A stretch of DNA of 64,000 nt from NCBI GenBank assembly GCA_965223265.1, contig OZ244999.1, forward strand, positions 6,240,001-6,304,000, given 5' to 3'. The stretch comes from Planctomycetota bacterium (GTDB lineage Bacteria; Planctomycetota; UBA8108; SXIK01). The notes beneath the pieces were generated by a model. The model did no database searches. It saw only the letters and a list, made by a program, of their open reading frames with translations, and had not been told where the DNA came from. Each line of letters opens with the position of its first letter. Positions within the stretch are counted from its first letter, which is position 1. The translations under genes and the position numbers were made by a program. Below, piece after piece: positions 20,485 to 47,470 of the stretch.

Positions 20485-20531
20485 AATCGTGATGCTGATG
20501 ACCGCGTGCGACGCGGTGCCGCCTCAGCGCT

Positions 20532-21446: not shown

Positions 21447-21656
21447 CTTTCCGATATCTTCTCAATCCTTTCGTCGCGGCGCAGGCTCGTTCCTCGTGTT
21501 CCACCCGAGCCGCGCCTGCGGTTAGCGCGCTTGAAGGTCTTCTTCAAACGGTTTTTCGACTGAATCTCAACCGCAAGAAAAAGAGTTCTTTAACCACGGA
21601 GGACTGGCCGCGACAAGGAAAAAGCAACTGCGGGCGCCGACGGCCGATCTCACAGT

Positions 21657-22625: not shown

Positions 22626-22922
22626 CGTCGAATAACCCGCAGCTCGTCTCTAACAGCCACCCGAGACAGTGCGATCACCCAGAACGAATGAGCCAAAAGG
22701 AAATAACGCGTTCCGCGAGAGCTCCCGTCGGCGACTCTTCGAGCCGCCTTCTGGTCGGTGCGCAACGGAGGACCGAGCGAATCGACAACCAGAGCTCACT
22801 CGTGGCTCGCCACACGGGGCGAAGGAGGAGCGCCTCCCCCACGCCCTCACTGTAGTCACGGGTGATTATATGAGGACCCGAAGCCCTTTGACAAGTTCGA
22901 GGCTCTCTTCGAGAATTCGGGA

Positions 22923-33848: not shown

Positions 33849-34958
33849 TTACTTCCTACCATGATCTGGCGAGGAAGTCTCACCTTGAGGTGGAAGCAGA
33901 CCCAATTTGATCAGCACGTTCCTGAGACCTTCAACGCGCCGCGAGCGCTCCTCGTCGTCGATCTCCGGCGCCGCGACAGCAGAGAGGTTTCGAGCGACTT
34001 CCCGGTGGGCGTTAGGGAGGGACGCGTTAAGTCTCATCGATGGCCACGCGAGCCAGAGCGCAACGCAAGCACCAGCCGCGAAGCTGACGAGAGTGGCAAC
34101 AGGGAGCAGCCCAGCGCTCTCCCGCGCATCGCTCGGCGGCCGCTGCACACCATCGAGCGCTGCGTCGACATCGCTGGGCACCTCGACGCGAACGAGCACG
34201 GTCGTGATGTTGTCCGGTCCCCCCGCCGCTCTCGCGAGCTCGATGAGTTGACTGCAAGCACTTTCGAGATCGTCGTGATTTTCAAGAACCTCTTGGATCT
34301 GCGCGGACGAAACTTGCTCGTGAAGTCCGTCGCTCGAGAGCAGAAAAATATCGCCATGCCGTAGCCCCACAATTTCCAACAGATCCACTTCGACGTCCTC
34401 GCGTAGCCCTAGGCCACGCGTGAGAATATTGCGCTGAAAGGAGTACTGCGGCGAGTCTGCATCGATTTCCCCACGATCCAAGAGTTCGCGCACCAGCGAA
34501 TGATCACGCGTCACCTGCTCGAGGCGGCCTCCCGTGAGCATGTAGGCTCGACTATCGCCGACTTGAGCGACAACGGCACGCCGGTCAAGAATCGTCATCG
34601 CCGTGACGGTCGACCCCATCGGCTTGCCGGATCCACTCGTCGCCGCTTGCGCGAAAATCGCCGCGTTTGCCTCGATCGTAGCCGTCTCCAAGCTGACGCG
34701 GGGGCCAGAGCGGTACGAATAGTAGAGACGCCGAATCACATCCACGGCAGTCCGGCTGGCGTCACCGCCGCTGGCAAGCCCGCCCATGCCGTCTGCTACC
34801 ATCACGAGGCGGCCCTTGCGCGCGAGTTCCTCTTCGTCCTCAGGCTCGTAACACAAAAACGAGTCCTGATTCTCCTTCCGGACACAACCGACATCAGTTG
34901 CGCCGTGCATCTGAATTGTCGTGGAATTCATGGGAGCGGTTTGACTGCGTGTCGTCAT
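33849..34958 (-). CDS. PP2C-family Ser/Thr phosphatase with C-terminal TM helix
   Basis: TDVGCVRKENQD, VADGMGG, VGDSRAY, TRDHS, SSDGL, GGPDNIT; TM LLPVATLVSFAAGACVALWLAW. Confidence 0.92.
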   Translation of the reverse strand: MTTRSQTAPMNSTTIQMHGATDVGCVRKENQDSFLCYEPEDEEELARKGRLVMVADGMGGLASGGDASRTAVDVIRRLYYSYRSGPRVSLETATIEANAAIFAQAATSGSGKPMGSTVTAMTILDRRAVVAQVGDSRAYMLTGGRLEQVTRDHSLVRELLDRGEIDADSPQYSFQRNILTRGLGLREDVEVDLLEIVGLRHGDIFLLSSDGLHEQVSSAQIQEVLENHDDLESACSQLIELARAAGGPDNITTVLVRVEVPSDVDAALDGVQRPPSDARESAGLLPVATLVSFAAGACVALWLAWPSMRLNASLPNAHREVARNLSAVAAPEIDDEERSRRVEGLRNVLIKLGLLPPQGETSSPDHGRK

Positions 34959-35027
34959 CTCTGTGGTCGAAGCAAATATCCGCCGAACAACTGCATCACG
35001 CTGAGATTCGATCCAAACGGGCAGACA

Positions 35028-35612
35028 TCAATCCTCGATCGACCTGCCGGAATCCCAGAGAACATGACCGCGATAGCGACGTCTAGGAACAGGGGCCTTC
35101 CATCCTTCTTCGGATTGCGGCACGACTACCTGCAACCGAGTCTGCAGAGGGATCAATTCGGGCGGGATCGCGTGCTGAGAATCGTCCGGCGGGAAACGTT
35201 CTCGGCCCCACAGAATGGCGACTGCCGGCGCCCGGCTAACGCCCAATGTCAGGCTTCCATCGCGGTCGGGATGAAAAAGATAACCCGTCCAAAGCCGAGG
35301 CTCGTGACCCCACGTGGACCTCCACCAGGCGACGAACTCTTCGCGGCTTCCAGCGCCCCGACGCTGCGGCGCTGCGAGCTGGGCTTCGGCCTCCGATTCG
35401 GCGAGCAGTGGCGAGAGCCAACGCAGCGCAATGTCAGCGACGAGCTGATCACCGGCGATGCCCTTCAGTCGGTCCGTCTGTCGAGAGACGGCGCGAACCT
35501 GTTCGCTAGCGACCGAGAGTATCGGCTCTAAAAGCTCGGGATGCGCTCGATAATACGTCGGCAGAAGCGCACTGAGCCCAGCCTCGTTATCGGCGCTTCG
35601 TCTTTGAATCAT
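35028..35612 (-). CDS. Contractile-tail baseplate wedge protein, P2 gpI-like (diverged)
   Basis: LSALLPTYYR...LEPILS...TDRL...ALRWLS resembles the tail protein I N-terminus (LLP..YR...FL...IDRL...LPWLA); follows baseplate J. Confidence 0.55.
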   Translation of the reverse strand: MIQRRSADNEAGLSALLPTYYRAHPELLEPILSVASEQVRAVSRQTDRLKGIAGDQLVADIALRWLSPLLAESEAEAQLAAPQRRGAGSREEFVAWWRSTWGHEPRLWTGYLFHPDRDGSLTLGVSRAPAVAILWGRERFPPDDSQHAIPPELIPLQTRLQVVVPQSEEGWKAPVPRRRYRGHVLWDSGRSIED

Positions 35613-35702
35613 CTCCCACCACCTCGCGACAAGCGATCGGACCCACCCATTCGCGCGCGTCGCTCGCGACCGTTTTCGCTCGCCCTACTTTGTGACATGG
35701 CT

Positions 35703-38294
35703 TTACTCCGGCCCGTTTCCGGTAAAGACCAACTCTTCCAGGCGCGGAAAGAAAACGTAACCGTCGTCGACTCTTCCAGGCGAGCACCACGCGGGCGGCA
35801 CGGTCGCGCCTGGCACGCGCAACTCCGTCAACCACGCCGCGGCATCGAAACCTTCCAAGGCGCGGAGAATCGCGCCCCACTCCTCGACTCCCGGGCGCGC
35901 TCGACCTTCGCGGTGTCGAGGCAGCTGCGCGATCCAATCGCGGCGACAAATTCTTCCAAGCACGACACTCAGTCCTTCGTCGTCGAGCCATCCACGCGCC
36001 GGTAGACCAAGCCGGTCCTCACCGCCGGTCACTGGATCGAAGAATGCCTCAAGGCATGCAACCAGGGCTCGGCGTAGTGGGAGCGATGGGAGCTGTTCGC
36101 CCCCGGCAGGCGTCATCGACACCTCGACGGGCACGAAACCGGGTGCCGTCACCTCAACGAGCGTGCCCAGAGGCACCTTGCGGCCGAGTTCCTCAGCGAC
36201 ATCCTGGCGCAGACCAGGCGGCAACGGGCGGCGATCTCGACGCACGAGCGTGACGACAAGATAACCAAGTCGATCGCGCTGAGATGCCACTTCCACACGT
36301 GCCACTTCGGGGATGTACGCCTTGCAGAAGTGAGCAATATCCTCGGCGGTGACAACACGGCGAGACATTCTCAAGTCACAGACGGCGCGGCGGCGAAAAC
36401 ATTGACTCGACTCCGCATCTGCCCCACCGCTTGTCGCGAGCGGCTGCACCACCTGAGTCACACCCGGCAAATCACCCTCAAGAACTCGAATCGACTCAAC
36501 CGAACGGTTGCCAAGAGCACCTTGCGTCAGCAAAACGCGCGGCAATCGCAGCATCCGCCGGCCTCGCCACATCGCGCTCAGGTCGAGCTCGAGAGTGCCA
36601 TCGCGGCGGCGATGAAGTCTGAAACGGCCGCCACTCTGCGGAACCTCCGGCGTCGCGGGTTCATCTGTGTCGGCTGCGCCGGGAAGATCGCCAGCAGGGT
36701 CGACGTCGCCAGATCCCACAACGGTTTCGAGACGGTCACTAGCTCTTGGAATGCGCCGACAAGATCGCCACTCTCCTGTGTCGTCTTGAACGTCGATGAC
36801 GTCGAACTTGAGAGGCTGGCCGTCGTCGATCGGCAGAGTCACGCGGGCCTTGCCGCGCGCGTCGAGCTCAAGCTCGAATCGCACGTCGCGGTGCTCAGTT
36901 CGCTGCTGGACGACGGCCGCGTGGGGCAAAACGCGTCGCATACGGAGCGGCTCGCACACTGTCCCACCGACCCACCGCGCCCGGACCCAGACGAGTCGTT
37001 CGCCGTGAAGCTCGATCGGCGCCATATCCTCTTCCGCCGCCCAAGAGATCAAGCCCGGGCGCGAAAACCCCTGCGTGCCGTCACTGACGACGAATGGCTG
37101 GAAACCGTTGGGAGTGGAAATCTCCCACTTCAGCACGGCACCCCGAGTGAGCGCTCCATGCCAACCCGATGCACGCCCAACGTCGACGTAGACGCCAGCA
37201 GCGCAGCCGCGATCCCAACCGAAGTAGACGGCGGGGTCCTCGTCGTGAGGCAGCAGCGAAACGTCGAAGTGCCGCCGACCGAGGGAACCTGGCTGCGCTA
37301 CTAGTGAGGTCACCGAATGGTCTCCCCAAAGATCCTCATGGCACGTAAGGATTCTGACAACCGGCCGCGGGAACCGCCACGCACTGCTGTCGAGCTCTTC
37401 CACAGCGACAGGAGCTCCGCTCCCCGCCCATGACACCCACTGCGGCACAGTCAGCCGCACATCGCCGCGGTGCGGCAGCACGCATCGGATCCAGTACGAA
37501 GCCTGACAATCGACGGTGGCTTCGGTGAGGTCGAAGAGAGGGCCACACAGTTTCATGCGCAGCACCTTCTCCCCCCCGACGCCACGCGCTTCTTCCCATT
37601 CCACGGGGAGCGAACGCCAGCCACCTGTGGCGCTGAACTCCCACAACGCGCCGAGCAGCTGCTCACCGTCCATGCCCCACTCGAGCGTCAACTCCCCGAT
37701 GCGTGAACGGAGAATCGACAGGACAAGATCTCCAAGGTAAAGCCGTCGCTCATAGCTCTCCCGACCACCGAAGAGTTCGCATTCGCTTTCATTCCATCCG
37801 TGATGTGGATAGGGAATGATCTCGCGGCACGACTCGGCGCACGTCAGAACGACTCGCTTCAGCTCCGCGGTGCTGCACGGAGCGTCTGAGGTGGTAACGA
37901 AGGCCACATGAGGCTCCCCGGCAGCGCGAGCTGGAGCAACCATCGTTCCGGCCGGCACGTTGACTTCCCCCACCTCCTCGTCGACTCGAAAACAGACGAC
38001 ACCGTGTGCCGGCCGCGGTCCGAGAGGCTCCGCTCCGAGCAGTTCTAGAAGACGTGGATAGAGAGACTCTTCGATGGCGCCCGCCTCTGAGCTCAATCTT
38101 GCCAAGGATTCCGCGAAAACCTCCACGAGGACGCGGCGCGGATCATCTGGCCCGATCTCCGCCCAAGACGGGCTACGCTCCACGAGTCGCGATTCCATGT
38201 GCGCTAGAAACTCGCGCGCGGTGCTGGCGTCCAAGTCCGTCGAGAATTCCGTGGCACGCGGTGCGGCATGCGTTGGTCGCGGGTCAGAGGCCAT
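35703..38294 (-). CDS. Baseplate J-like assembly protein (Afp11/Pvc11-type)
   Basis: PSWAEIGPDDPRRVLVEVFA, LLELLG, VPAGT.V, WVRAR, TQGALGN, SGGADAES, RVVTAEDI, LEAFFDPVTGG. Confidence 0.85.
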   Translation of the reverse strand: MASDPRPTHAAPRATEFSTDLDASTAREFLAHMESRLVERSPSWAEIGPDDPRRVLVEVFAESLARLSSEAGAIEESLYPRLLELLGAEPLGPRPAHGVVCFRVDEEVGEVNVPAGTMVAPARAAGEPHVAFVTTSDAPCSTAELKRVVLTCAESCREIIPYPHHGWNESECELFGGRESYERRLYLGDLVLSILRSRIGELTLEWGMDGEQLLGALWEFSATGGWRSLPVEWEEARGVGGEKVLRMKLCGPLFDLTEATVDCQASYWIRCVLPHRGDVRLTVPQWVSWAGSGAPVAVEELDSSAWRFPRPVVRILTCHEDLWGDHSVTSLVAQPGSLGRRHFDVSLLPHDEDPAVYFGWDRGCAAGVYVDVGRASGWHGALTRGAVLKWEISTPNGFQPFVVSDGTQGFSRPGLISWAAEEDMAPIELHGERLVWVRARWVGGTVCEPLRMRRVLPHAAVVQQRTEHRDVRFELELDARGKARVTLPIDDGQPLKFDVIDVQDDTGEWRSCRRIPRASDRLETVVGSGDVDPAGDLPGAADTDEPATPEVPQSGGRFRLHRRRDGTLELDLSAMWRGRRMLRLPRVLLTQGALGNRSVESIRVLEGDLPGVTQVVQPLATSGGADAESSQCFRRRAVCDLRMSRRVVTAEDIAHFCKAYIPEVARVEVASQRDRLGYLVVTLVRRDRRPLPPGLRQDVAEELGRKVPLGTLVEVTAPGFVPVEVSMTPAGGEQLPSLPLRRALVACLEAFFDPVTGGEDRLGLPARGWLDDEGLSVVLGRICRRDWIAQLPRHREGRARPGVEEWGAILRALEGFDAAAWLTELRVPGATVPPAWCSPGRVDDGYVFFPRLEELVFTGNGPE

Positions 38295-38965
38295 CAGTCT
38301 TCCCCGTCTCGACCGCCGTCACTCGGCGATACCGGTCGATAGGATCGTCTCCGGCCCAAAGGCTGTTCTTCCGAGTCACCCCCGACTGAAGTCAGAAGTG
38401 GCAGTGAAAAAACCATCCTGCCTGCGACGCAGCTTAGAGAAACGCGAAGACGCCCGTCCGAGACGGGAGTCACCATCACGCGGCGGCAAAAGAGCTCCGG
38501 AACCCAGCGCTCCAACGCCTCTTCGATCAAAACAGCAGCCACCGCACGATCGTGTTTGCTCTCGACGCGCTGCATCTCGTGCACGCGGCAGCCAAACCCC
38601 GGCAGCAAGCGTCGCTCCCCAGTCGCAACCTCAAGAACCCCGCGGAGCCGCTGGATCACCTCGCGGTCGCCGCGCTCAGCATCGCCGAGAACGTTTCGAG
38701 GGACGACGCCGCGCAGCGCCTCCTCGAACGTCGATGTCACCGGGTCCAGGCGGTCGCGCGCTTCGTAGGTCGGTCCCGAACGATCGCGCTGAGAGGCTGA
38801 CGGTGCCGACACGACGTCTGCGGCATCATTGTCATTGATCCCGGGTGCTGGCTGAGGCCAAGACGCGTCGTGCGGCGCCTGACCCAAACGAACACCTGTT
38901 CCACGCGACACGCTGGAAGGAGTGTGAGTTGACTGATCCTCAGGCACTCTGCGCATAGCGCTCAT
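38294..38965 (-). CDS. GPW/gp25-family baseplate wedge (sheath initiator)
   Basis: IQRLRGVLEVATGERRLLPGFGC...IEEALERWVPEL matches gp25 (I..IL.T..GER.M.P.FG...I..AL..WEPRI); TGATG-coupled to baseplate J; start uncertain (38965, 38956 or 38740). Confidence 0.8.
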   Translation of the reverse strand: MSAMRRVPEDQSTHTPSSVSRGTGVRLGQAPHDASWPQPAPGINDNDAADVVSAPSASQRDRSGPTYEARDRLDPVTSTFEEALRGVVPRNVLGDAERGDREVIQRLRGVLEVATGERRLLPGFGCRVHEMQRVESKHDRAVAAVLIEEALERWVPELFCRRVMVTPVSDGRLRVSLSCVAGRMVFSLPLLTSVGGDSEEQPLGRRRSYRPVSPSDGGRDGED

Positions 38966-39746
38966 CGCCAAGCCTCTCAAACTCCACGGTGGTCGTATGA
39001 CCGCTCGCCTCAACGAAATGTAGGACGCGCAGAGCGCGAAACAGACCCCGCGCACCACGCACTGCTCCGACGAGCCGGAAGGGACGCAGTGGCGCCCAAT
39101 CCATGCGACCAACCACACGCATCTCGCCGTGTGTTTTTCCTCCCCTCATGCTGGAGAGTTGATAGGAGATCACGTCGCGACCACCGTTCACCGTCATCAA
39201 TCCACCGAGCGTCGGTAATCGTTCACCGAAATACAACTTACCACCGGCGACGGCGAAGGCGCAGCCACGACGCTGTGCCGCGGCGCGCACGTACGCCAGT
39301 GGATCGCCACGCACTTCAACGCGGCGGTGGATCGGACTTGGTCGCACGTCTGGGAGCCGATCAACGACCGGCACCAAACCGAGATCGACCGCCACCAGGC
39401 GAACGACATCTTCATCGGACACTTGAAAGAAGACTCTCTCGTATTCGACGCGGCAAAGGTGATAGTCGGAAACCGCGGCGCAGCGTAGGACATCACCGGT
39501 CACGTCGAGCACACAAGCGAACTCGTGCAGCCGTCCTCGAAAGAGAGTGCCACCACTGTTTCGGAGGCAAACGCGGTCCCCCGGCCGCAAATTTTCAGGC
39601 TTAAGGCTATGACTCACCATCTCCAGCTCAACCCTCATCGGTCGGTCGACGGCGTCGAAATGGTAGAGCCGCGTCAACTGCGGCCGAGCGTGAAATGCGA
39701 CACCGAGCTCGAGCGTCATCCCGCCTAGAACACTGCTTCGATTCAT
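38940..39746 (-). CDS. Phage late control D / gp27-like baseplate hub without a spike domain
   Basis: RVFFQVSDEDVVRLVAVDLGL, AQRRG.AFAV.GGKLYF, C-terminal LVGA...RGLFRA.RVLH....GHTTTVEFER; ATGA-coupled to the tube initiator. Confidence 0.7.
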   Translation of the reverse strand: MNRSSVLGGMTLELGVAFHARPQLTRLYHFDAVDRPMRVELEMVSHSLKPENLRPGDRVCLRNSGGTLFRGRLHEFACVLDVTGDVLRCAAVSDYHLCRVEYERVFFQVSDEDVVRLVAVDLGLVPVVDRLPDVRPSPIHRRVEVRGDPLAYVRAAAQRRGCAFAVAGGKLYFGERLPTLGGLMTVNGGRDVISYQLSSMRGGKTHGEMRVVGRMDWAPLRPFRLVGAVRGARGLFRALRVLHFVEASGHTTTVEFERLGDERYAQSA

Positions 39747-40174
39747 GGATCGACCGCTCCTTCGGCTCGCCACATCACGATGTCCAACCAGCCACGGATT
39801 GGTGTACCTTCGGAGTCGAACCGGGTCCACTCCTCGAATGCGTGCGCGAGATAACCTCGAAATCGAAAATCCCCCCAGGAAAACATGAGGCGTGGTGGTA
39901 GGCCTTGAGTCGACGGCTGCGACCACCGGGCAACGGCGTCAGACCATCGACGGACGTCAGACGCTCCGCTGGCCTCGTGCGTGGCGTCGAGGAAAAACCG
40001 CGTCGAAAGCCTTTCGGTATGACCGGAGCAAAATTGAACCGGCAGCTCGCTGGCACCGAGAACCTGCGGCACCGCGAACTGATTCGTTCGTTCGATGCGA
40101 TAACTCTGTGGGTTCCATAGCACGTCCAAACTCTCAAGTGATTCAAGGTCGGTCATAGCCGCTTTGACGAGCAT
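39743..40174 (-). CDS. CIS tube initiator (Afp7/Pvc7-like; no LysM seen)
   Basis: VLWNPQSYRIERTNQF...G....VQFCSG...LSTRFFLD, PPRLMFSWG.FRFRGYL, WTRFDSEGTPIRG. Confidence 0.85.
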   Translation of the reverse strand: MLVKAAMTDLESLESLDVLWNPQSYRIERTNQFAVPQVLGASELPVQFCSGHTERLSTRFFLDATHEASGASDVRRWSDAVARWSQPSTQGLPPRLMFSWGDFRFRGYLAHAFEEWTRFDSEGTPIRGWLDIVMWRAEGAVDP

Positions 40175-40181
40175 CTCGGAT

Positions 40182-40949
40182 CTAAAACCCCATCGACTCC
40201 CATGCACGAATCGCTTCGCCTCGCCGCTCGCGAATCAACAACTGCGCTTCGAAGAATCGCGCCGCAGTCGCGTCGTCATGCCCCTGAATCAGGCCAGCCG
40301 TGGTGAGAGGCGCCAGAGGGTTCGTTCCTGTTGGCTCGACCTCGGCGAACTCGTTTGCGACGAACGTGGAGACTCGTCGCGACGCTGCTCTGGGCTGCGG
40401 GGGAGAGGACCGAGTCCGTCGTCGCATAGAATCCGACTCGCTCCCGGATTGTGGTGCCGGCGGTGCGGCGCCCGATGCCATCGATTCAGCGCGACTGAGG
40501 GCGGACGCTTCCCCACTCGCCGCGGCGGTGACGGACGCCGCATCGGCCGGAGAATCCCGTTGCGCCGTCGAGAGACTAGCGGCTGCAACGCCTCGAACGC
40601 CGGATCGACGCGGGGCCGGCGGAGCGGCTACCGTCGACGGTTCAGACTCCGCCGCCTCGCGCGAAGGTGTGGCCGTAGGCGAGACGCGTGCGCTGGGGTG
40701 ATGCGACGCGACCGCTCCGCCCGCCGGCCGTCGGCGCGACCACGAAAAAAACTCGCCTGCGGGCAGCAATTCAAGAGACGATTCGAGGACCGCAGCGCTC
40801 TCCTGCCATCGCTGCGCGACGCTTTCGGCGAACACATCCGGACCGTAGCTCAGAGGCCTGGGCTCGAGCAAGGCGTACCATGCATCGGGTGCGTAACGCT
40901 CGTAGGCAGCCGCTGCCAGCTGGGAGTTTTCCCTCACGTTGATCGACAT
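40182..40949 (-). CDS. Hypothetical protein inside the CIS operon (Ala/Ser/Pro-rich core)
   Basis: Co-oriented 255-aa ORF that fills the gap between the second tube gene and the tube initiator. Confidence 0.6.
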   Translation of the reverse strand: MSINVRENSQLAAAAYERYAPDAWYALLEPRPLSYGPDVFAESVAQRWQESAAVLESSLELLPAGEFFSWSRRRPAGGAVASHHPSARVSPTATPSREAAESEPSTVAAPPAPRRSGVRGVAAASLSTAQRDSPADAASVTAAASGEASALSRAESMASGAAPPAPQSGSESDSMRRRTRSSPPQPRAASRRVSTFVANEFAEVEPTGTNPLAPLTTAGLIQGHDDATAARFFEAQLLIRERRGEAIRAWESMGF

Positions 40950-41380
40950 CGAATCCCCTCGTGGGCTATTTCAACCGCCTCGATCGCAGCGCCAGCAAAA
41001 TTCGCGTCGAGCCGCGGTCCTTCCCAAGCGCACGGCCACCCGGAAAGGAACTCCCAACGCATCCGTTCTTGACCGCGACGCGAGATCAAGACGATGGCAC
41101 CGTCGCGCCGATCGCCGCGTAAAAACCAATTGTAGAGCTCGCTCCCGACCGTCAAACCGCGCCGCATGACGAGAGGGCCGTAGCTGCGCTGACCCGCAAA
41201 GCAACTGGGCGACTCAGCACCTCCTTGCACATATTCGAACACTTCCACACGACCGCTGAGACCGCTGCAGCTGACAAACCCCGCAGCCGAAACGCCATCG
41301 ACCTCGAGGCAGAAACAATCGCTCGTGAGCAGGCGAGCCATGACTGGCCCCTTCCCAGCATCTGAGACGACTCGCTTCAA
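40934..41380 (-). CDS. Tail tube protein 2 (T4 gp19-like)
   Basis: FCLEVDGV..AGFVSCSGL, FEYVQGG, LVMRRGLT, LYNWF, RRDGAIVL, RWEF..GWPCAWEGP.LDA, AIEAVEIAHEG; start 41380 (TTG) or 41341 (ATG). Confidence 0.9.
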   Translation of the reverse strand: MKRVVSDAGKGPVMARLLTSDCFCLEVDGVSAAGFVSCSGLSGRVEVFEYVQGGAESPSCFAGQRSYGPLVMRRGLTVGSELYNWFLRGDRRDGAIVLISRRGQERMRWEFLSGWPCAWEGPRLDANFAGAAIEAVEIAHEGIRCRST

Positions 41381-41691
41381 GGAACCTCTCCTCGCGTCGA
41401 CGGGTAGTCATTGAGCTCGGCATACAAGTTCCCAAGGTAGCCGAAATCTTCATCCGTCAACTGCTGAAGCGTCTGCACGTCAGCGCTGTGAAAATCTCCT
41501 TGCGGCTCGATCGTCCGTGCCAGCATGAGCGTCAAGAACGCTTCCGGACGCAGATAGACGCGAAAATCTCGCAGCACAGCCATTTCGTCGCGCACCGTCG
41601 CTGCACGCAATACACCACGGCGAGCCGTGCGATCTGTTGGGTCGCGAACGCCATCGCGCAGTTCGAAAGAAACACACGTCCGCCGACTCAT
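41377..41691 (-). CDS. CIS-associated putative tail assembly chaperone
   Basis: FELRDGVRD...RRGVLRAATVRDE...DFRV...AFL..MLARTI...DFGYLGNLY.ELN matches the small conserved gene that follows the tube gene in Streptomyces/cyanobacterial-type CIS loci. Confidence 0.7.
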   Translation of the reverse strand: MSRRTCVSFELRDGVRDPTDRTARRGVLRAATVRDEMAVLRDFRVYLRPEAFLTLMLARTIEPQGDFHSADVQTLQQLTDEDFGYLGNLYAELNDYPSTRGEVP

Positions 41692-42155
41692 ACGCTCTCT
41701 TCACTTCGCGGTTGCACACGCTCGATGCGCTCGACACACAACTCCAGGGTTTCGACGCTGATCGCGGTATCAGCTGCGTTGAATTCCGGTGCCTCGTAGC
41801 GGCAAGGCCAGGCTTCGAAGAAATTCCAGCGCGCCTGTTCCTTCATTTCCCCGTCGAGAAGGACGACCGCACCGCAGCGCCGGTCATCCTCGCCACGCTC
41901 GATGCGCCGGCGCCACTCGTAAAGCTCGCCGGAGACGGTAGCCCCTTTACGCAGCACCACGTTGCCGTAGCGCAGCTTGCCGGGAATCTTGAACACCGCA
42001 TGGCTGCTGCCAACGCGATACTCGACAACATCGGAACTTGAGACCAGTCCACCGACCTCGGAAAACCCACCCACCACCGAACTTTGGTCGCTGGCGAAAT
42101 CTTCGATCTCGACCAGAAAGTTGAAGTTACCGAAAAACGGTACCGTACGTTTCAT
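41688..42155 (-). CDS. Tail tube protein 1 (T4 gp19-like)
   Basis: PFFGNFNFLVEI, GGFSEVGGL, VVEYRVG, KIPGKLRYGNVVLRKG, RWNFFEAWPCRYEAPEFNA, VETLEL; GAGGAG RBS before ATG 42155. Confidence 0.93.
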   Translation of the reverse strand: MKRTVPFFGNFNFLVEIEDFASDQSSVVGGFSEVGGLVSSSDVVEYRVGSSHAVFKIPGKLRYGNVVLRKGATVSGELYEWRRRIERGEDDRRCGAVVLLDGEMKEQARWNFFEAWPCRYEAPEFNAADTAISVETLELCVERIERVQPRSEESV

Positions 42156-42212
42156 GCTCACTCCTCGCCTCAGTCGATCACCCACCACTTGTCGAATGCG
42201 CGCGGCTCCCGC

Positions 42213-43595
42213 TCAGCGTTCGTGCCCCGATCGTGGCTTCTCCTCCACTCTCCTAGCCGGGCGTTCAAACCCAACCCCGTACGCATCCTGAGCGTAACCG
42301 TCAAACGGCGGCGCCAACTGCACGTCGACGCGGATATCAACACAATTGAGCTCGCCGCTGTCGGGATCGAGCCGACTCGCTGCGGGTGAGCACGTGACGT
42401 CGAAGCCGTGACGGGGCTCCCGCAAGAGTCCCCAGGCGGCGAGATGCCGCAAGAACGCTTGCACTTCTCGTTCCACACGCCGGCGCATCATCGGATGGTG
42501 CAGTTCCATGACAACCCACCTGGTCCCAAATTCGAGCGAGCGGCGAAGCCCTTCCCACCGGCGCCACGCCTCGAGAGCACGCAGCGCCGTGTCAGCCGCT
42601 CCAACCTTGGAGAGATCGGCGTCCCCAACCACGGCACGCGGAAAAGCTGCGGAGCGGTGCCGCGAGTACGAAAGTTCGTCACGAAAATCCGTCGACTCGA
42701 GCGCCGCACACAAAGCCCCCGGTCGCGTCCAAAAAGGGTTAGCAGCCTGCTGAAGCAGGTCCTTCGACCGCGAAGTTGGTCCCTTGACGCGCCACTCGCC
42801 GGCTGCGCCAGGACGGCCGCATGCCGCTGGCGGCCACAGCTCGATGGTATTGGGCCTCACCCAACGAAGCGATCCACCGAACTCTGCCGCAGCCTCCGCG
42901 GGGGGAAGCGGCCGAAGCAAGACGAAGAACTTGTCAGGACGGTCCTTCGCCAGCTCGACGACACGTTGACGCCGCGCACTCGAGAGCCCGCTCAGCACGA
43001 CGGTCGTGACCGCCTGAAGGTCGGCAAGCTGATACACGCCCGTGCGCAACCCGGGACGCTCTTCTTCCCCGATCCAATCGGACGTCGTCGCTGCGGCGCT
43101 TGCCAAGCGCGGTTCATCGAGAATCACCGCGCGCCGAGCGCCGCAGCGAAGAAAGTCGAAGAGCGGCTCAGAACCAGTCCAAAACCGCTGCCACTGCGTC
43201 GCAGCGTCGTTCGCCGGCTCGATCTCTATCTTCGCTTCCTCGTGAACCTCGCTGGCCGCGCCCAATTCCACCCCTTCACCACCGCCGCGGAGGGCGCTAC
43301 CGCTGAAACTCACGAGAAGCGGGACCACTGAACCGGACGCAGGATCGCGAGCCGCATCGCGCCCCGGATCGTCGTGCGATACGCTGCTCGGATGGTCGCC
43401 ACTACTGCCGGTCGCAGGAATGTCGAAACCGAAGTCCCCGGCGAACGCGGTATACCCGAGACCACGCCAAGCGAGGCGCGCGTCACGCTCCGTGTTGCCT
43501 CGGAGGCGGCCCACCGAAAGTGCGGCACCGAGACTGCAAAGCTCGCTCTCGCTAGTCGCGAGCAAAGAAGCGAAGAGTTGCTGCTGGGGTGTCAC
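42213..43595 (-). CDS. Highly diverged contractile tail sheath protein
   Basis: WIG....G.RTGVYQL..LQAVTTV and C-terminal RRSLEFGTRWVVMEL...RRVEREVQAFLRHLAAWGLL...FDVTC resemble sheath signatures; sits between the cap and tube genes. Confidence 0.75.
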   Translation of the reverse strand: MTPQQQLFASLLATSESELCSLGAALSVGRLRGNTERDARLAWRGLGYTAFAGDFGFDIPATGSSGDHPSSVSHDDPGRDAARDPASGSVVPLLVSFSGSALRGGGEGVELGAASEVHEEAKIEIEPANDAATQWQRFWTGSEPLFDFLRCGARRAVILDEPRLASAAATTSDWIGEEERPGLRTGVYQLADLQAVTTVVLSGLSSARRQRVVELAKDRPDKFFVLLRPLPPAEAAAEFGGSLRWVRPNTIELWPPAACGRPGAAGEWRVKGPTSRSKDLLQQAANPFWTRPGALCAALESTDFRDELSYSRHRSAAFPRAVVGDADLSKVGAADTALRALEAWRRWEGLRRSLEFGTRWVVMELHHPMMRRRVEREVQAFLRHLAAWGLLREPRHGFDVTCSPAASRLDPDSGELNCVDIRVDVQLAPPFDGYAQDAYGVGFERPARRVEEKPRSGHER

Positions 43596-44233
43596 GATGA
43601 AGGCCCCTTCTCTAGGACAACGCTACGCTCGTGAACTCGCTGTACGAGCTCGAAGCGCTCCGAGGCAATCGGGCACGGTACTTCGAACGACACCGTCACG
43701 CGGTGCTCAGGCAATCCGATCCGCCGCCAACCGTCCGCCTCAGCGACCAGCTCTACGGGCAAGCGATAGGTGGACGGCTCGGCCGGCGCGTCCGCGACGG
43801 AGACGTCGCTGGCATCCAGCTCAACACGATCGCCGTCGACAGTCAGTTCGACGCTGCCAGCATCGCGCAGCGACCGCAGTGCCCCAGCAAAGGCGACGAG
43901 CTGTTCCTCAAGGCCACCGCCCGCAAGGAGAAACATGTAGCCGGCCCGCACCCAGAGCGGTGGCGTGTGAAGTGGCTGTTCAAACGACGCCGCGCTCCCG
44001 GTCGCCGTGGTCTCAAAACCGTTCTGCCGCAGACGGAGATCCGGCACGACACTGTGCAAGTAAAGAATCCCGAAAAGGCCTTGGCCATCCGCTGGAGCCG
44101 ACTCGATCGCATCGAGTGGATGGCCGAAGAAGACAGGCACACGTGCGGCGTCCGGCTCTTGGAGGCCATCCTCCAACAGGCCGGAGAGCTTCTGGCTGAG
44201 CTCAAAGAGCACCCTCGATCCCACCGGCAGCAC
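43592..44233 (-). CDS. Pvc16/DUF4255-family CIS cap (tail terminator) protein
   Basis: ILYLHSVVPDLRLRQ, PPLWVRAGYMF, EEQL...GALRSLRD, V.FEVPCPI; GTGA-coupled to the sheath. Confidence 0.75.
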   Translation of the reverse strand: MLPVGSRVLFELSQKLSGLLEDGLQEPDAARVPVFFGHPLDAIESAPADGQGLFGILYLHSVVPDLRLRQNGFETTATGSAASFEQPLHTPPLWVRAGYMFLLAGGGLEEQLVAFAGALRSLRDAGSVELTVDGDRVELDASDVSVADAPAEPSTYRLPVELVAEADGWRRIGLPEHRVTVSFEVPCPIASERFELVQRVHERSVVLEKGPSS

Positions 44234-44382
44234 CTCACTTCACGACTCTTCACAAAAACGCGCTGGGACCCTCGGCCTTCCACACCATTGGATCAAGTCG
44301 GCCGGCCACGGCGTCTGGCAAAGCCCGGGAGACACCCGACGACGTCGGGCGACCTCGTGGCTCCTTTCCTCGTTCGACGGAG

Positions 44383-44411
44383 ACGGTAAGACATGCTCCG
44401 ATAAGTGTCAA
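44383..44411 (-). promoter_or_regulatory. Sigma70-type promoter upstream of the CIS operon
   Basis: Minus strand TTGACA-N17-TACCGT, about 150 bp upstream of the cap gene. Confidence 0.55.
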
Positions 44412-44530
44412 TGGTGCGAGCGTTTTTCCTCGCCGTGCGGCGCCGCCCAGGATTCCGCGTCCGGAAACAGAGTGACAGCGTAAGGCGCACCGCAGAAATC
44501 ACTTAGGAAGAGCGAAGGTACGGAGAAGAC

Positions 44531-45022
44531 TCAATCAGCGCCGACCTGCAGCAAGTAGTAGGCTCCGAGCTCGGCAGCCGACGAGAAACAAAACGCCCCT
44601 CGACCTCGCTGCCGACCGACCAGCTTGAGAATCGGCCGATACGTCCCCCAGTAGGGGTGCACCGCCAATAGATCGAAGACACCCGTAACTCCGGGTGCGG
44701 TGCGGTCTGAGGTCACCTCGATTGCGCCGCTCATGGTGTCGCGAAATCGTAGCCTACAGTTGGCACCGCGGAGCTCGAATTCGACACCCTGCGGATGCGA
44801 GTGTGGATCTGTAAGCTCGGCAGGCGACGCTTCGGATTCGGCGGTGTGGGCGCGTGGCGTGGAGCTAGGTGACGAAGACAAACGCTCGCGCAGCGTGGCG
44901 TGGAGATCGACAAAGAGGCGAGTCACCGCGGCCGCTCGACGAGTCTCGCTCGCAGCCTTCGGCATCTTCGCGGACGGTTCGTCAGCACCGGCGAATGCTC
45001 GGGCAGCTGTTTTGCGTAGCAC
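44531..45022 (-). CDS. Hypothetical protein
   Basis: 163-aa ORF with AGGAGGAGG RBS before the GTG start; co-oriented with neighbours; no motif recognised. Confidence 0.65.
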   Translation of the reverse strand: MLRKTAARAFAGADEPSAKMPKAASETRRAAAVTRLFVDLHATLRERLSSSPSSTPRAHTAESEASPAELTDPHSHPQGVEFELRGANCRLRFRDTMSGAIEVTSDRTAPGVTGVFDLLAVHPYWGTYRPILKLVGRQRGRGAFCFSSAAELGAYYLLQVGAD

Positions 45023-45161
45023 GCGGCCTCCTCCTGGTCATCGCATCGATCTCACGCTTGGCAGCCCGTCGCCGCGCGGCACTGACGATCCGAGCCTCGT
45101 CCCCGACGCGCGTCGCTCCAAGAACTCCACGATACAAGCGTAGCCCGGCGTCCGCGGCCGA

Positions 45162-47144
45162 TCACTCGCCTGGTTCCCTATCCAGCCTGCGGTCAACGCC
45201 GAGGTTCCGCACGACACCTTCAAGCTGCCTCTTCTGCGCAAGCAGCCGTGCCGCCTCATCCCCCATACGTCGCCGAGCCAGCGCACGCTCCTCGCGAATC
45301 AACCGATCCTTATCACGTACTTTCTGTTTGAGTTCTTCGACGTACGCCTGCATGACGACGACGTCACCTTGCAGCTGTGTAAACTCCGTGCGAAACGTTT
45401 CGAGTTCGAGAAGGTCGCTGGCGTGTTTTGCATGCGCTTCCTCGAGATCTGTTGAGAGCGATTCGACGACTGCCGCAAGCTTCTCCTCCTGCCCTTTGAG
45501 CTGCGCGGTCTCACTGCGCAGTTGCTCCTGCAGTCGTGCCGCACGTTGTCGTTCATCGTCCAGGGCGCTCTTGAGTTCGAGCGCACTCGCCTCTCGAGCT
45601 TCTGATCTAGTTTCAAGCTCACCAAGCCGGCGCCGAAGCGTCTCGAGCTCTTCCAGCGCTGCGTGTGAGCGGCGTGATGCTTCAGCGGCGTGACGCTGGG
45701 AATCCGCCAATTCACGCTCGAGAGCCGCGGTCTGCTGTGCGTGGCGCGATGCGGTCTCGCGCAGCCCGGAGCTCTGCACCTCAGCATCACGGGCTGCAGC
45801 CTCCGTCTCGGCGAGTTGGTGGCGAAGGGACTCCTCACCCGCCGTCAGACGCGCGCACTCGGTGCGCAGAGTCTCGAGCTCGTCGCGCAGCGCCGTGGCT
45901 TCCTTCTCAAGGCGGGCGCGATCATCCGCAGCCCGTTCGAAGCCGCGCATTTCGCTACGCAGGGAGTCGATTTCGAGGTCAGCCTCCTGCGAATGAGAAC
46001 GCAGCAGCATTGTTTCCTCAAGAAGCTCTTGAACCTTCTTCTCAAGCGACTCGCGGACGCCAAGCTCACTCTCCAGCTGCTCGCGCGCACGAGTTGCCTT
46101 CGCGGCGTTCTCAACTCCCTCGCGCACGGCGTCGAGAAGACGGGATTCGATCTCAGCGAGCTTCTGCTCCTTGGTCTCGGCAGACTGATGCTGGGTCGCG
46201 AGTTGCCGTTCAAGGAATGCCGTTTTGTGACGCTCAGTCTCCAGCGCCAGCTCCACCGCTTCCAGCTTCAGCCGCTCCGCCTGCGCCTCGAGCCGCCCAG
46301 AGCGCTCGACATCGACTTGCTGCCTTAGGCTTTCGAGCTGCTCCAGCGAACCGTTCGTCTCCCGCCGCACCCGCTCGAGATCCCGCTCACTCACTTGTAG
46401 CGCTAACGTCGTCTCACGCTTTTCCGTCTCGGATTTCGCCAGCGCCTCGTTCAACTGGTCCTTGTCGGCACGCAGCTGTTCGAGATCCTGACGCAATGCG
46501 TCGACTTCTTGGCGAGCACGTTCGACGTGCTCTCTCTCGCTCTGCGACATCGTCGCCACGGCGGACTCACGCCGACGAAGCTCCACGAGTTCCTTCTCCG
46601 AGGTTTGGAGTTTTCGCCGCAACTCGCGAACTTTCTTCTGAGCGCCGCTCTTTCCTTCTTGCGCTACGGCAAGCTGTTCCTCGATCTGGATCCGCTTCTT
46701 GTCCGCCTCCTCGGCGCGTCCGCGCCAGAGCTCTCGATCCGCTTCAGCACGCTCAGCGCGTTCTTTGAGCACGTCGGCGCCGCGCTGCAGCTCCGCCGCA
46801 GCCACGCCGAGGGGCGCCATCGATGCCGACGGCTCGGTAGCCGATCCCGGAAACTCACAGCGGATTTCGCTTCCCCCCACCGTCAACGTGTCGCCTGAGA
46901 GTAGCTGGCCACGTTCGATGCGAGCGCCGTTGACGCGCGTGCCGATGGCGCTGCCGAGATCTTCGACGAAGAGCTCATCACGCTCGAGCCAAATCTTGGC
47001 GTGATTCCATGACACCGCGGGATCACGAAGGTGGAGGCTGGCGTCGCGATTGCTCCCAATGGAGCATGGCGCAGCGGAAGAAATCTCGATCGCGTCGCCT
47101 TGTCGCGGCCCGCTGAGCACCACCAATCGCGGTCGCTGGTTCAC
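45162..47144 (-). CDS. FHA-domain protein with long coiled coil
   Basis: LVVLSGP..G...IGS...DPAVSWNHAKI...VEDLGSAIGTRVNG...LLSGD.L.VG, then ~530 aa of E/R/L/A-rich heptads; AGAGGAG RBS before GTG 47144. Confidence 0.88.
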   Translation of the reverse strand: MNQRPRLVVLSGPRQGDAIEISSAAPCSIGSNRDASLHLRDPAVSWNHAKIWLERDELFVEDLGSAIGTRVNGARIERGQLLSGDTLTVGGSEIRCEFPGSATEPSASMAPLGVAAAELQRGADVLKERAERAEADRELWRGRAEEADKKRIQIEEQLAVAQEGKSGAQKKVRELRRKLQTSEKELVELRRRESAVATMSQSEREHVERARQEVDALRQDLEQLRADKDQLNEALAKSETEKRETTLALQVSERDLERVRRETNGSLEQLESLRQQVDVERSGRLEAQAERLKLEAVELALETERHKTAFLERQLATQHQSAETKEQKLAEIESRLLDAVREGVENAAKATRAREQLESELGVRESLEKKVQELLEETMLLRSHSQEADLEIDSLRSEMRGFERAADDRARLEKEATALRDELETLRTECARLTAGEESLRHQLAETEAAARDAEVQSSGLRETASRHAQQTAALERELADSQRHAAEASRRSHAALEELETLRRRLGELETRSEAREASALELKSALDDERQRAARLQEQLRSETAQLKGQEEKLAAVVESLSTDLEEAHAKHASDLLELETFRTEFTQLQGDVVVMQAYVEELKQKVRDKDRLIREERALARRRMGDEAARLLAQKRQLEGVVRNLGVDRRLDREPGE

Positions 47145-47470
47145 GCCAACTCCTCTAACCACGAGAAAACGTGTAGCCCTCTAGGGCGGGGACCGATAGG
47201 TTCCCAACTCCCATTTCCCCGGGCCAGCACAAAGAACTTGGATTCCCAATGGCCAGCGAGTTTAACCGAATTCTTCTGCAAAACGGAGCCACAAAACATC
47301 CCGGTGATCACCGACGCGGGGCGAGCAAAAGCGGCGCCGTGGAGGGCACGATGTTTTCACAACACTCGTCTGTAGACACACGGCTTGCGGAGCGGTTGTA
47401 GAAACTGCTCGGAGACAGCCGGTAGAATCGCGCCTTTCCGTCGAAGTCTGAACAAACCAAGGTTGCGGCA

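What the first reader, a model, noticed from the sequence alone, without database searches (positions are those of the whole stretch)
35028..44233. Minimal, strongly diverged contractile injection system in a housekeeping neighbourhood
Seen: ten co-oriented ORFs without visible frameshifts, in the order cap, sheath, tube, chaperone, tube 2, orphan, tube initiator, gp27-like hub, gp25, baseplate J, followed by a gpI-like gene. Start/stop overlaps (43592-95, 41688-91, 39743-46, 38292-96) suggest translational coupling. There are no capsid, terminase, integrase or lysis genes and no T6SS membrane complex. Known: this order and the Pvc16-type cap mark eCIS loci (Afp/PVC and Streptomyces CIS families). 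Inference: not a prophage or T6SS but a stripped-down CIS whose tube proteins stay canonical while sheath, hub and wedge have drifted. It may be a domesticated tail machine with a new intracellular or structural role.
Basis: partly seen in the sequence, partly recalled or inferred. Interest (0 to 1): 0.82.

Follow-up and report, generated by a model that had tools for sequence, protein, structure and literature searches.

The report
Spike-less phage-tail machine in Planctomycetes
This is an intact, strongly conserved set of phage-tail-like (contractile injection system) genes that one order of Planctomycete bacteria has inherited vertically at a fixed chromosomal site. It lacks the usual piercing spike and assembly ATPase but is joined to phospho-signalling genes, so it probably serves a use other than ordinary toxin injection.

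Summary
Window 35028-44233 (minus strand) holds 11 co-oriented intact ORFs: Pvc16-type cap, small sheath, tube, chaperone-like protein, second tube, a conserved low-complexity protein, CIS_tube initiator, gp27-like hub, gp25, baseplate J and a small protein in the gpI position.

The unit is larger than reported. An FHA/coiled-coil gene and a 163-aa gene of unknown family lie upstream, and a PP2C phosphatase gene lies downstream. All three are conserved with the cluster.

- **Distribution:** a strong sheath ortholog is in 19 of 21 genomes of the window's order (Planctomycetota, three families). It was not seen outside that order in a 401-genome phylum sample.
- **Position:** the cluster sits between the same housekeeping genes in all three families.
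- **Selection:** dN/dS is 0.05-0.34 in unsaturated pairs, so it is not a relic.
- **Hub:** it is only the gp27-like half of Afp8/VgrG. No spike OB domain or PAAR was found in any of 10 genomes of one genus, 9 of which carry the cluster.
- **Missing from the cluster:** AAA+ ATPase, fibre and effector genes.
- **Closest solved relatives:** the Streptomyces cytoplasmic CIS and a haloarchaeal CIS.

I read it as a new reduced CIS lineage. It is probably cytoplasmic and regulated by threonine phosphorylation. Its function is untested.

The parts
45162..47162 (-). FHA-domain protein with a long coiled coil (666 aa); first gene of the conserved unit
   Evidence: Pfam FHA E 2.4e-13 and Yop-YscD_cpl E 7.6e-12. 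An FHA protein lies directly upstream of the 163-aa gene in 13 of 16 genome loci, plus one copy cut by a contig end. The other two loci end before that position.
44531..45022 (-). 163-aa accessory protein of unknown family ('up163')
   Evidence: Found upstream of the cap in 16 of 16 genome loci by profile. In 1.84 billion representative proteins the family has 99 hits at E<=1e-3, nearly all 145-200 aa. The AlphaFold model has pLDDT 83 and an alpha/beta sandwich fold; the best match is Z 8.8, of frataxin/Nqo15 type, and no CIS part matches. An N-terminal motif has R3 in 57 of 57 sequences and T or S at position 5 in 57 of 57.
43592..44233 (-). Tube/sheath terminator cap (Pvc16/Afp16 type)
   Evidence: Pvc16_N E 5.6e-4 for the window protein; 10 of 11 orthologs match, best E 4e-14. 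The profile hits chain 9gts_0A at E 4.8e-4. hhalign against the genome's canonical cap gives E 1.3e-3.
42213..43595 (-). Small contractile sheath protein (460 aa here, about 300-375 aa in most relatives)
   Evidence: Profile A1 against solved structures: 8bky/8bl4 at E 1.2-1.8e-14, 9ezm at 6.6e-14, Afp3/Afp2/Pvc2 at 1-3e-3. The N-terminal and C-terminal motifs are conserved.
41688..42188 (-). Main inner tube protein (tube1)
   Evidence: PF06841 E 7.7e-33, TIGR02241 E 3.7e-29. It is 49-73% identical across the order and forms one clade with 100/99 support.
41377..41691 (-). Tail-assembly-chaperone-like protein (104 aa)
   Evidence: phrog_508 E 2.8e-4; 3 of 6 orthologs match, best E 2.8e-5. Pfam gives 0 of 6. 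Present in 6 of 16 genome loci, always together with the low-complexity gene or a substitute for it.
40934..41380 (-). Second tube paralog (tube2, probable tube adaptor)
   Evidence: PF06841 E 1.4e-24. NCBIfam CIS5_fam adaptor E 1.1e-15, below cut-off.
40182..40949 (-). Conserved low-complexity protein (255 aa); tape-measure-like by inference
   Evidence: Five sequences share a conserved N-terminal stretch of about 50 aa and an invariant W and terminal F at the C-terminus, with a variable middle. No Pfam hit.
39743..40207 (-). Tube initiator (Afp7-type CIS_tube, no LysM found)
   Evidence: PF19266 E 7.7e-18.
38940..39746 (-). Central hub, gp27-like half only (268 aa), no spike domain
   Evidence: Profile against solved structures: 7aef_q E 1.2e-10, 9qgm_8A E 1.6e-10, Afp8 E 1.7e-5, matching only the first ~340 of their 529-581 residues. 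The AlphaFold model has pLDDT 85.2. Foldseek: 7b5h_AJ at E 1.5e-15 with TMq 0.72 and TMt 0.36; stand-alone hubs 3cdd and Mu gp44 at TMt 0.55-0.59.
38294..38965 (-). gp25-type wedge protein with an N-terminal low-complexity extension of about 100 aa
   Evidence: PF04965 E 1.3e-8 at residues 150-230 of the long ORF. The ATG at 38965 was read from the sequence. Orthologs are about 128 aa.
35703..38294 (-). Baseplate J (Afp11/Cis11 type, 863 aa)
   Evidence: PF04865 E 2.4e-12; TIGR02243 E 3.2e-29; solved chain 9gtp_1K E 1.8e-14.
35028..35612 (-). Small protein in the gpI position (194 aa); homology not shown
   Evidence: A profile finds it directly after J in 10 genome loci where sequence is available. 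It has no Pfam or solved-structure hit. hhalign against Tail_P2_I-positive proteins at the same position in canonical CIS loci gives E 0.035, probability 1.5%.
33849..34958 (-). PP2C phosphatase with a C-terminal hydrophobic segment; last gene of the unit in two of three families
   Evidence: PP2C_2 E 1.5e-11, PP2C E 3.2e-11. It lies directly after the gpI-position gene in 5 genomes of families f1 and f3, overlapping it by 4-10 nt in three of them.

Best explanation
The cluster is a functional, vertically inherited, reduced contractile-injection-system (CIS) operon specific to one order of Planctomycetota.

**Gene order.** FHA/coiled-coil protein, 163-aa accessory protein, cap, sheath, tube, (chaperone-like), tube adaptor, (tape-measure-like), tube initiator, spike-less hub, gp25, J and a gpI-position protein. 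A PP2C phosphatase follows in two of the three families.

**Shown here.**
- The homologies of each part.
- The fixed gene order and the fixed chromosomal site.
- Restriction to the order, within the genomes searched.
- Purifying selection on every gene tested.
- No recognisable spike, PAAR, ATPase, fibre or effector gene in the cluster.

**Inferred.**
- J, gp25 and the small protein form wedges around a trimeric gp27-like hub.
- The initiator and adaptor seed a tube of tube1 hexamers.
- The small sheath polymerises around the tube, and the cap ends it.
- The particle has no piercing tip and no genes for release, and its closest solved relatives include the Streptomyces cytoplasmic CIS. It therefore most likely stays in the cytoplasm and acts on the producer cell or its membranes, for example in stress-triggered lysis.
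- Assembly or firing is gated by threonine phosphorylation, read by the FHA protein and reset by PP2C. This parallels the Fha1/PppA control of the Pseudomonas H1-T6SS, which I recall and did not test here.
For: **Homology.** Searches support the part assignments.

**Conservation and synteny.**
- A strong sheath ortholog (E<=1e-51) is in 19 of 21 genomes of the order, across all 3 families.
- Ten related genome loci keep the same gene order.
- Sixteen metagenome loci are colinear as far as their contigs reach; one of them is the same contig as a genome locus.
- In a 401-genome phylum sample, only 8 genomes, all of this order, score >=318 bits. Every other genome scores <=64 bits.
- The flanks are the same in all three families: aspartokinase, NAD synthase and MoaE on one side, PP2C and pyruvate kinase on the other.
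- The tube1 tree groups sequences by taxonomic family.

**Selection.** dN/dS is 0.068-0.337 for 8 genes at dS 0.13-0.28, and 0.050-0.204 for 6 genes at dS 0.25-0.60.

**Missing spike.**
- The hub matches only the N-terminal hub part of Afp8-type proteins.
- Phage_base_V is found in 0 of 10 genomes of genus g5.
- PAAR is found in 0 of 10 genomes of genus g5.
- Nine of those 10 genomes carry the cluster, and none has a second sheath.

**Linked signalling genes.** The FHA gene and the 163-aa gene are present in every locus where upstream sequence exists. PP2C overlaps the last gene in three genomes.

**Closest solved relatives.** The sheath, cap and J proteins match the Streptomyces coelicolor CIS most closely (8bky/8bl4, 9gts, 9gtp; papers identified). 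That system is cytoplasmic and lacks a fibre, a typical tape measure and ClpV (passages of PMC10066040).
Against: - No expression data exist: no RNA run was listed for the region.
- No particle has been seen.
- Cytoplasmic location, contraction and phospho-regulation are all inferences.
- No Ser/Thr kinase gene lies next to the cluster in the loci scanned.
- The family f2 loci carry no PP2C gene.
- A spike or an ATPase too diverged for Pfam, or encoded elsewhere, cannot be excluded. AAA+ ATPases are too common for a genome-wide test.
- The window's own genome also holds a complete canonical eCIS, which could in principle lend parts there.
- Genus g5 genomes are 55-95% complete, so absences there are 'not found', not proven.
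Confidence: 0.6

Rival explanations
1. It is an ordinary extracellular CIS of lineage II that is released by lysis and injects other cells. Its spike, ATPase and cargo would be either too diverged to recognise or encoded elsewhere.
For: Seven of the eight subunit types common to eCIS loci are present at least in part (list from PMC6899500 passages). In subtypes IIa-c Afp8 is already split into gp27 and gp5 ORFs (same passages), so a separate spike gene could have moved. Nine of 21 genomes of the order hold a Phage_base_V domain somewhere.
Against: Phage_base_V and PAAR were found in 0 of 10 genomes of genus g5, of which 9 have the cluster. The genes are tightly packed and leave no room for a spike gene in family f2 loci. 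No effector, fibre or lysis gene lies beside the cluster; the flanks are conserved housekeeping genes. eCIS loci are usually patchily distributed, whereas this one sits at a fixed site across an order.
Confidence: 0.17
2. It is a membrane-anchored, T6SS-like system that fires outward, comparable to T6SS subtype iv or the haloarchaeal CIS. The FHA and PP2C proteins would act as a threonine-phosphorylation switch.
For: FHA (YscD-cytoplasmic-type) and PP2C genes are in the unit. The PP2C protein has a hydrophobic C-terminal segment (sequence; weak LapA_dom hit). The sheath profile also matches the haloarchaeal CIS sheath 9ezm at E 6.6e-14.
Against: No membrane-complex, anchor, ClpV or spike family was found among the cluster's ORFs. 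The FHA protein has no predicted membrane segment that I could see in its sequence. No effector or immunity genes are adjacent.
Confidence: 0.15
3. It is a decaying remnant of a prophage tail or eCIS with no present function.
For: Several parts (sheath, hub, cap, gpI-position protein) score poorly or not at all against public profiles when the window proteins are used alone. Several canonical parts are missing.
Against: All genes are intact in the window and in 10 related genome loci. dN/dS is 0.05-0.34 at unsaturated dS. Gene order and chromosomal site are conserved across three families.
Confidence: 0.02

Closest known systems
Streptomyces coelicolor cytoplasmic CIS (CIS-Sc, dbeCIS subtype IId)
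   Same: It is the closest solved relative by sequence for the sheath (8bky/8bl4, E about 1e-14), the cap (9gts_0A, E 4.8e-4) and baseplate J (9gtp_1K, E 1.8e-14). It also lacks a fibre, a typical tape measure and ClpV (PMC10066040 passages).
   Different: In subtype IId Afp8 is a single contiguous ORF covering the gp27 and gp5 parts (PMC6899500 passages), and the matching CIS-Sc chain 9gtr_q has 641 residues. Here the hub has 268 residues and no spike part. That CIS-Sc has a Cis15 ATPase is my recollection; no ATPase is in this cluster. FHA, the 163-aa protein and PP2C have no reported counterpart in the passages I read.
Extracellular CIS superfamily (Afp/PVC/AlgoCIS; dbeCIS of Chen et al. 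2019)
   Same: Shares tube, sheath, Afp7-type initiator, gp25, J and the Pvc16-type cap, as well as the tail-only gene content.
   Different: It lacks Afp15 (AAA+ ATPase), the gp5 half of Afp8, PAAR, fibre and effectors. It sits at a fixed housekeeping site and is inherited vertically across an order, rather than being patchy. The cap gene comes first in the order, not last.
Haloarchaeal CIS ('archaeal T6SS', Halogeometricum borinquense, 9ezm)
   Same: Its sheath is among the three best solved matches, at E 6.6e-14 (paper identified from the listing and abstract only).
   Different: It comes from a different domain of life and is reported as a contact-dependent antagonistic system. No further comparison was made here.
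Threonine-phosphorylation control of the Pseudomonas aeruginosa H1-T6SS (Fha1, PpkA, PppA)
   Same: An FHA protein and a PP2C phosphatase are encoded with a contractile sheath-tube machine.
   Different: This comparison is recalled, not tested. No kinase gene is adjacent here. The FHA protein here carries a coiled coil of about 550 aa. The machine is not a T6SS.

Membership tests
eCIS superfamily (eight subunit types present in >85% of loci, PMC6899500 passages) | Afp1/5 tube proteins | tested here: met
   Two PF06841 proteins, E 7.7e-33 and 1.4e-24.
eCIS superfamily | Afp2/3/4 sheath | tested here: met
   The profile of 11 orthologs hits solved CIS sheaths at E 1.2e-14 and Afp2/Afp3/Pvc2 at 1-3e-3. 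The window protein alone reaches only E 0.055 against Pfam.
eCIS superfamily | Afp7 tube initiator | tested here: met
   PF19266 CIS_tube E 7.7e-18. No LysM domain was reported.
eCIS superfamily | Afp8 VgrG-like hub plus spike (gp27 + gp5) | tested here: not met
   Only the gp27-like half is present (268 aa). No Phage_base_V appears in the cluster or in 0 of 10 genus g5 genomes.
eCIS superfamily | Afp9 gp25-like wedge | tested here: met
   PF04965 E 1.3e-8.
eCIS superfamily | Afp11 baseplate J | tested here: met
   PF04865 E 2.4e-12; 9gtp_1K E 1.8e-14.
eCIS superfamily | Afp15 AAA+ ATPase in the locus | tested here: not met
   No AAA family hit in any of the 14 ORFs from 33849 to 47162. The genome's other, canonical locus does have one. 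A copy acting in trans cannot be excluded.
eCIS superfamily | Afp16 terminator cap | tested here: met
   Pvc16_N in 10 of 11 orthologs, best E 4e-14.
Type VI secretion system (subtypes i-iii) | Membrane complex (TssJLM), TssB/C sheath pair, ClpV | tested here: not met
   None of these families appeared in the Pfam scans of the cluster and of ORFs at 18.5-64 kb. I ran no dedicated genome-wide search for them.
Prophage or R-type tailocin | Capsid, terminase, integrase, lysis cassette, tail fibres | tested here: not met
   No such Pfam or PHROG hit in the cluster or its flanks at 18.5-64 kb. Only 1 weak sheath match (37% identity over 65 residues) was found in the viral contig collection.
Cytoplasmic CIS (Streptomyces type) | Particles free in the cytoplasm that act on the producer cell | not testable with these tools
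   Needs imaging. The only support here is sequence nearness.

The most novel reading that the evidence does not exclude
The cluster encodes a domesticated, non-injecting tail-like machine. It would be a blunt sheath-tube-baseplate particle kept in the cytoplasm of these Planctomycetes since the origin of their order. An FHA/PP2C phospho-threonine switch and a dedicated 163-aa partner protein would control it. Its role would be in the cell's own biology, for example regulated lysis, membrane remodelling or cargo release inside the cell, and not in attacking other cells.
Probability: 0.3. Interest if true: 0.85.

Novelty: new variant of a known kind. Interest (0 to 1): 0.68.

Why it matters
Most contractile injection systems are treated as mobile weapons that vary from strain to strain. 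This one is fixed at a single chromosomal site, kept under purifying selection across a whole order, stripped of its piercing tip and assembly ATPase, and tied to signalling genes.

If it assembles, it would show how few parts a sheath-tube machine needs: in one genus, about ten genes with no tape measure, spike or ATPase. It would also give a second, independent case, after Streptomyces, of a phage tail turned to the cell's own use. That case would be in a phylum known for unusual cell biology, and the system is testable because the window comes from a closed 9.18 Mb genome.

Five literature searches found no paper in the held library that describes such a system in Planctomycetes. Chen et al. 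2019 does not mention the phylum in its main text. I did not see that paper's supplementary tables or the dbeCIS database, and either may list such loci.

Tried and rejected
- **Word-indexed protein search with the sheath profile:** it returned only 2 proteins because the candidate list was saturated, so it says nothing about distribution.
- **Binding test:** a complex prediction of the 163-aa protein with the FHA domain and the cap gave no verdict (score 0.00). It is not evidence either way.
- **RNA runs:** no RNA holder was listed for the region.
- **Protein Atlas:** no usable hit for the 163-aa protein, and only low-recognition hits to hypothetical proteins for the gpI-position protein.
- **Fold of the 163-aa protein:** Foldseek found no match at E<=0.001. 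VIA-align gave a best Z of 8.8 (Nqo15) and 7.2-7.6 (frataxins), within the range the tool calls common, so I draw no functional conclusion.
- **gpI-position protein:** no Pfam hit to Tail_P2_I in 0 of 6 orthologs, no solved relative, and hhalign E 0.035 over 39 columns. Homology to gpI is not shown.
- **Chaperone-like protein:** Pfam gave 0 of 6.
- **Recent duplication of the genome's canonical eCIS:** rejected. The tube proteins are only 26-31% identical and the sheaths match over only 83 residues.
- **'Stops inside' flags:** the window's own intact sheath gene is flagged in the same way. I read the flags as profile matches running past ORF ends, not as broken genes.
- **Metagenome scans with the 163-aa and hub alignments:** The sheath alignment was used instead.
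Full report
**1. What is in the window**

The minus strand between 35028 and 44233 carries eleven open, co-oriented ORFs.

Profile searches confirm five parts directly:
- two T4 gp19-type tube proteins, E 7.7e-33 and 1.4e-24
- a CIS_tube initiator, PF19266, E 7.7e-18
- a gp25 wedge protein, E 1.3e-8
- a baseplate J protein, E 2.4e-12; TIGR02243 scores E 3e-29, below its cut-off

Taken alone, the window's cap (Pvc16_N E 5.6e-4) and sheath (Phage_sheath_1C E 0.055) are below threshold, and the hub has no hit.

**2. Relatives settle the weak parts**

The sheath-like protein has orthologs in related genomes. Ten related loci carry the same genes in the same order.
- *Sheath.* An 11-sequence alignment shows conserved N-terminal and C-terminal motifs. 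Its profile hits solved sheaths at E 1.2e-14 (8bky/8bl4), 6.6e-14 (9ezm) and 1-3e-3 (Afp3, Afp2, Pvc2).
- *Cap.* Ten of 11 orthologs match Pvc16_N, best E 4e-14. The cap profile hits chain 9gts_0A at E 4.8e-4.
- *Hub.* The profile matches Afp8/Pvc8-type chains (7aef_q E 1.2e-10, 9qgm_8A E 1.6e-10, Afp8 E 1.7e-5), but only in the first ~340 of their 529-581 residues. The AlphaFold model (pLDDT 85.2, pTM 0.82) matches these chains with TM about 0.72-0.76 on the query and 0.36-0.41 on the target. It matches stand-alone hubs (MuSo2 3cdd, Mu gp44) over their full length, with target TM 0.55-0.59. The hub is therefore the gp27-like half only.
- *J.* The closest solved relative is 9gtp_1K, E 1.8e-14.

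The entries 8bky, 8bl4, 9gts and 9gtp belong to the Streptomyces coelicolor CIS papers, and 9ezm to a haloarchaeal CIS paper (listing and abstracts).

**3. The remaining small genes**

- *Chaperone-like protein.* The 104-aa protein matches PHROG 508 (tail assembly chaperone) in 3 of 6 orthologs, best E 2.8e-5. Pfam gives 0 of 6.
- *The 'orphan'.* It is a real gene. Five sequences share a conserved N-terminal stretch of about 50 residues, an invariant W and a terminal F, around a variable low-complexity middle.
- *Co-occurrence.* The two genes occur together. The chaperone-like gene is found in 6 of 16 genome loci. In five of these six, the space between tube2 and the initiator holds the low-complexity gene or room for it; its conserved ends were checked in the window and three of these loci. 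In the sixth (L020) tube2 instead carries a C-terminal low-complexity extension of about 220 aa. Both genes are missing where tube2 abuts the initiator. I infer a chaperone plus tape-measure-like pair. This is not shown.
- *gpI-position protein.* A profile finds it directly after J in 10 loci. It has no Pfam or solved relative. In canonical CIS loci of two relatives, small proteins at the same position are Tail_P2_I members (E 4.4e-6 and 4.3e-4). Even so, hhalign between the two groups gives only E 0.035 over 39 columns.

**4. The unit is larger than reported**

- *Upstream.* A 163-aa gene (44531-45022) lies before the cap and an FHA/coiled-coil gene (45162-47162) lies before that. The profile of the 163-aa family finds it upstream of the cap in 16 of 16 genome loci. 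An FHA domain protein sits directly upstream of it in 13 of the 16. One more copy is cut by a contig end, and two contigs end too early to tell.
- *Downstream.* A PP2C phosphatase follows the gpI-position gene in 5 genomes of families f1 and f3. It overlaps that gene by 4-10 nt in three of them. It is not at that place in family f2.
- *The 163-aa family.* It has 99 representatives at E<=1e-3 among 1.84 billion proteins, nearly all 145-200 aa. The model (pLDDT 83) is an alpha/beta sandwich with no convincing known relative. Its disordered N-terminus carries the motif M-[LI]-R-[RK]-[TS]-[VA]-A-[RK]-A-F, with R3 in 57 of 57 sequences and T or S at position 5 in 57 of 57. That this is a phospho-site read by the FHA domain is my speculation.

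**5. Distribution and inheritance**

Titles of relatives' records place the lineage in Planctomycetota.
- A strong sheath ortholog (E<=1e-51) is present in 19 of 21 genomes of the order, in all three families. The exceptions are one genome that is 80% complete, with only a weak hit to a canonical sheath, and one that is 92% complete, with none.
- In a 401-genome sample of the phylum, 52 genomes have a match at E<=1e-5. Only 8 of them, all of this order, score >=318 bits. All others score <=64 bits and look like ordinary sheaths.
- The flanking genes are shared across families: aspartokinase, NAD synthase and MoaE on one side, PP2C and pyruvate kinase on the other.
- The tube1 tree forms one clade (100/99) with subclades matching families f2 and f3.
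- Sixteen metagenome loci are colinear as far as the contigs reach. One of them duplicates a genome contig.
- The viral contig collection gave a single weak sheath match.

**6. Selection**

For the two closest genome pairs, Nei-Gojobori dN/dS is 0.068-0.337 (8 genes, dS 0.13-0.28) and 0.050-0.204 (6 genes, dS 0.25-0.60). Comparisons with the window itself are saturated (dS 1.3-5, or undefined). The neighbouring pyruvate kinase is only 50-54% identical within the family, so much of the apparent 'drift' reflects the depth of the lineage. Even so, the sheath (35-44%) and hub (31-35%) have diverged more than tube1 (70-72%).

**7. What is missing**

- No AAA+ ATPase, spike OB domain, PAAR, fibre, effector or lysis family appears among the 14 ORFs from 33849 to 47162.
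- Across the order, Phage_base_V is found in 9 of 21 genomes and PAAR in 2 of 21, always on other contigs or loci.
- In genus g5 both are found in 0 of 10 genomes. Nine of those 10 carry the cluster, and none has a second sheath. These genomes are 55-95% complete, so this is 'not found', not proven absence.
- The window's genome also has a complete canonical eCIS about 5.9 Mb away: a 670-aa sheath, tube, Pvc16 cap, AAA ATPase, Phage_base_V, gp25 and J. Its tube is only 26-31% identical to those in the window, so the window cluster is not a recent copy of it.

**8. Comparison with known systems**

Chen et al. 2019 report that more than 85% of eCIS loci encode Afp1/5, Afp2/3/4, Afp7, Afp8, Afp9, Afp11, Afp15 and Afp16. 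They also report that Afp8 is split into gp27 and gp5 ORFs in subtypes IIa-c, and that Afp6, 12, 13 and 14 are absent or highly divergent in lineage II (PMC6899500, passages). The present cluster has six of the eight in full, half of Afp8, and no Afp15.

The Streptomyces CIS (subtype IId) is cytoplasmic and lacks Afp13, a typical Afp14 and ClpV (PMC10066040, passages).

The pairing of FHA and PP2C with a sheath-tube machine recalls the Fha1/PpkA/PppA pathway of the Pseudomonas H1-T6SS. That comparison is recalled, not tested. No kinase gene is adjacent here.

**9. Verdict**

The cluster is a real, intact, selected and order-wide CIS-derived operon with an unusual, reduced part list and its own conserved accessory genes. 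I file it as a new variant of a known kind.

Mechanism beyond the part list is inference: cytoplasmic location, contraction and phospho-control. Five literature searches found no description of it. I did not see the supplements of the eCIS surveys or the dbeCIS database. The first 18.5 kb of the window were not annotated.

Noticed in passing
G000:C1:301501-331297 (loci L005, L006), outside the window: The same genome holds a complete canonical eCIS: a 670-aa sheath, tube, Pvc16 cap with a TIG domain, AAA ATPase, Phage_base_V spike, gp25, J, a 916-aa protein and a DUF6519 protein.
   Followed up: partly
L030 (G001:C4:2085001-2103000) and L028 (G025:C2:69001-89000): A third CIS type occurs in relatives. 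It has a sheath of about 400 aa and a J of about 885 aa, followed by a small Tail_P2_I protein and a PKD (and PASTA) domain protein.
   Followed up: partly
L053 9491-12514 (G001), between the 163-aa gene and the cap: In one relative a 1007-aa FG-GAP repeat gene on the opposite strand is inserted inside the otherwise contiguous unit.
   Followed up: no
L020 2540-3643 (G007): Here tube2 is a 367-aa ORF: a tube domain followed by a tail of about 220 aa that is rich in E, T and P and then basic. It occupies the place of the separate low-complexity gene.
   Followed up: no
L053 185-3559 (G001): A 1124-aa protein combines a TIR domain with a C-terminal FGE-sulfatase domain, a few genes upstream of the unit.
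   Followed up: no
window 18516-24877: An LPS-core-like gene group: two glycosyltransferases, a Kdo/WaaP-family kinase, a heptosyltransferase and a DUF374 protein.
   Followed up: no
window 38700-38965 and 42900-43420: The window's gp25 and sheath both carry low-complexity insertions (about 100 aa and about 80 aa) that most orthologs lack.
   Followed up: partly
L038 16365-18401 and L036 14313-16349: In family f2 loci the gene after the unit, on the opposite strand, is a 678-aa protein with thrombospondin type 3 repeats. It stands where the PP2C gene lies in the other families.
   Followed up: no
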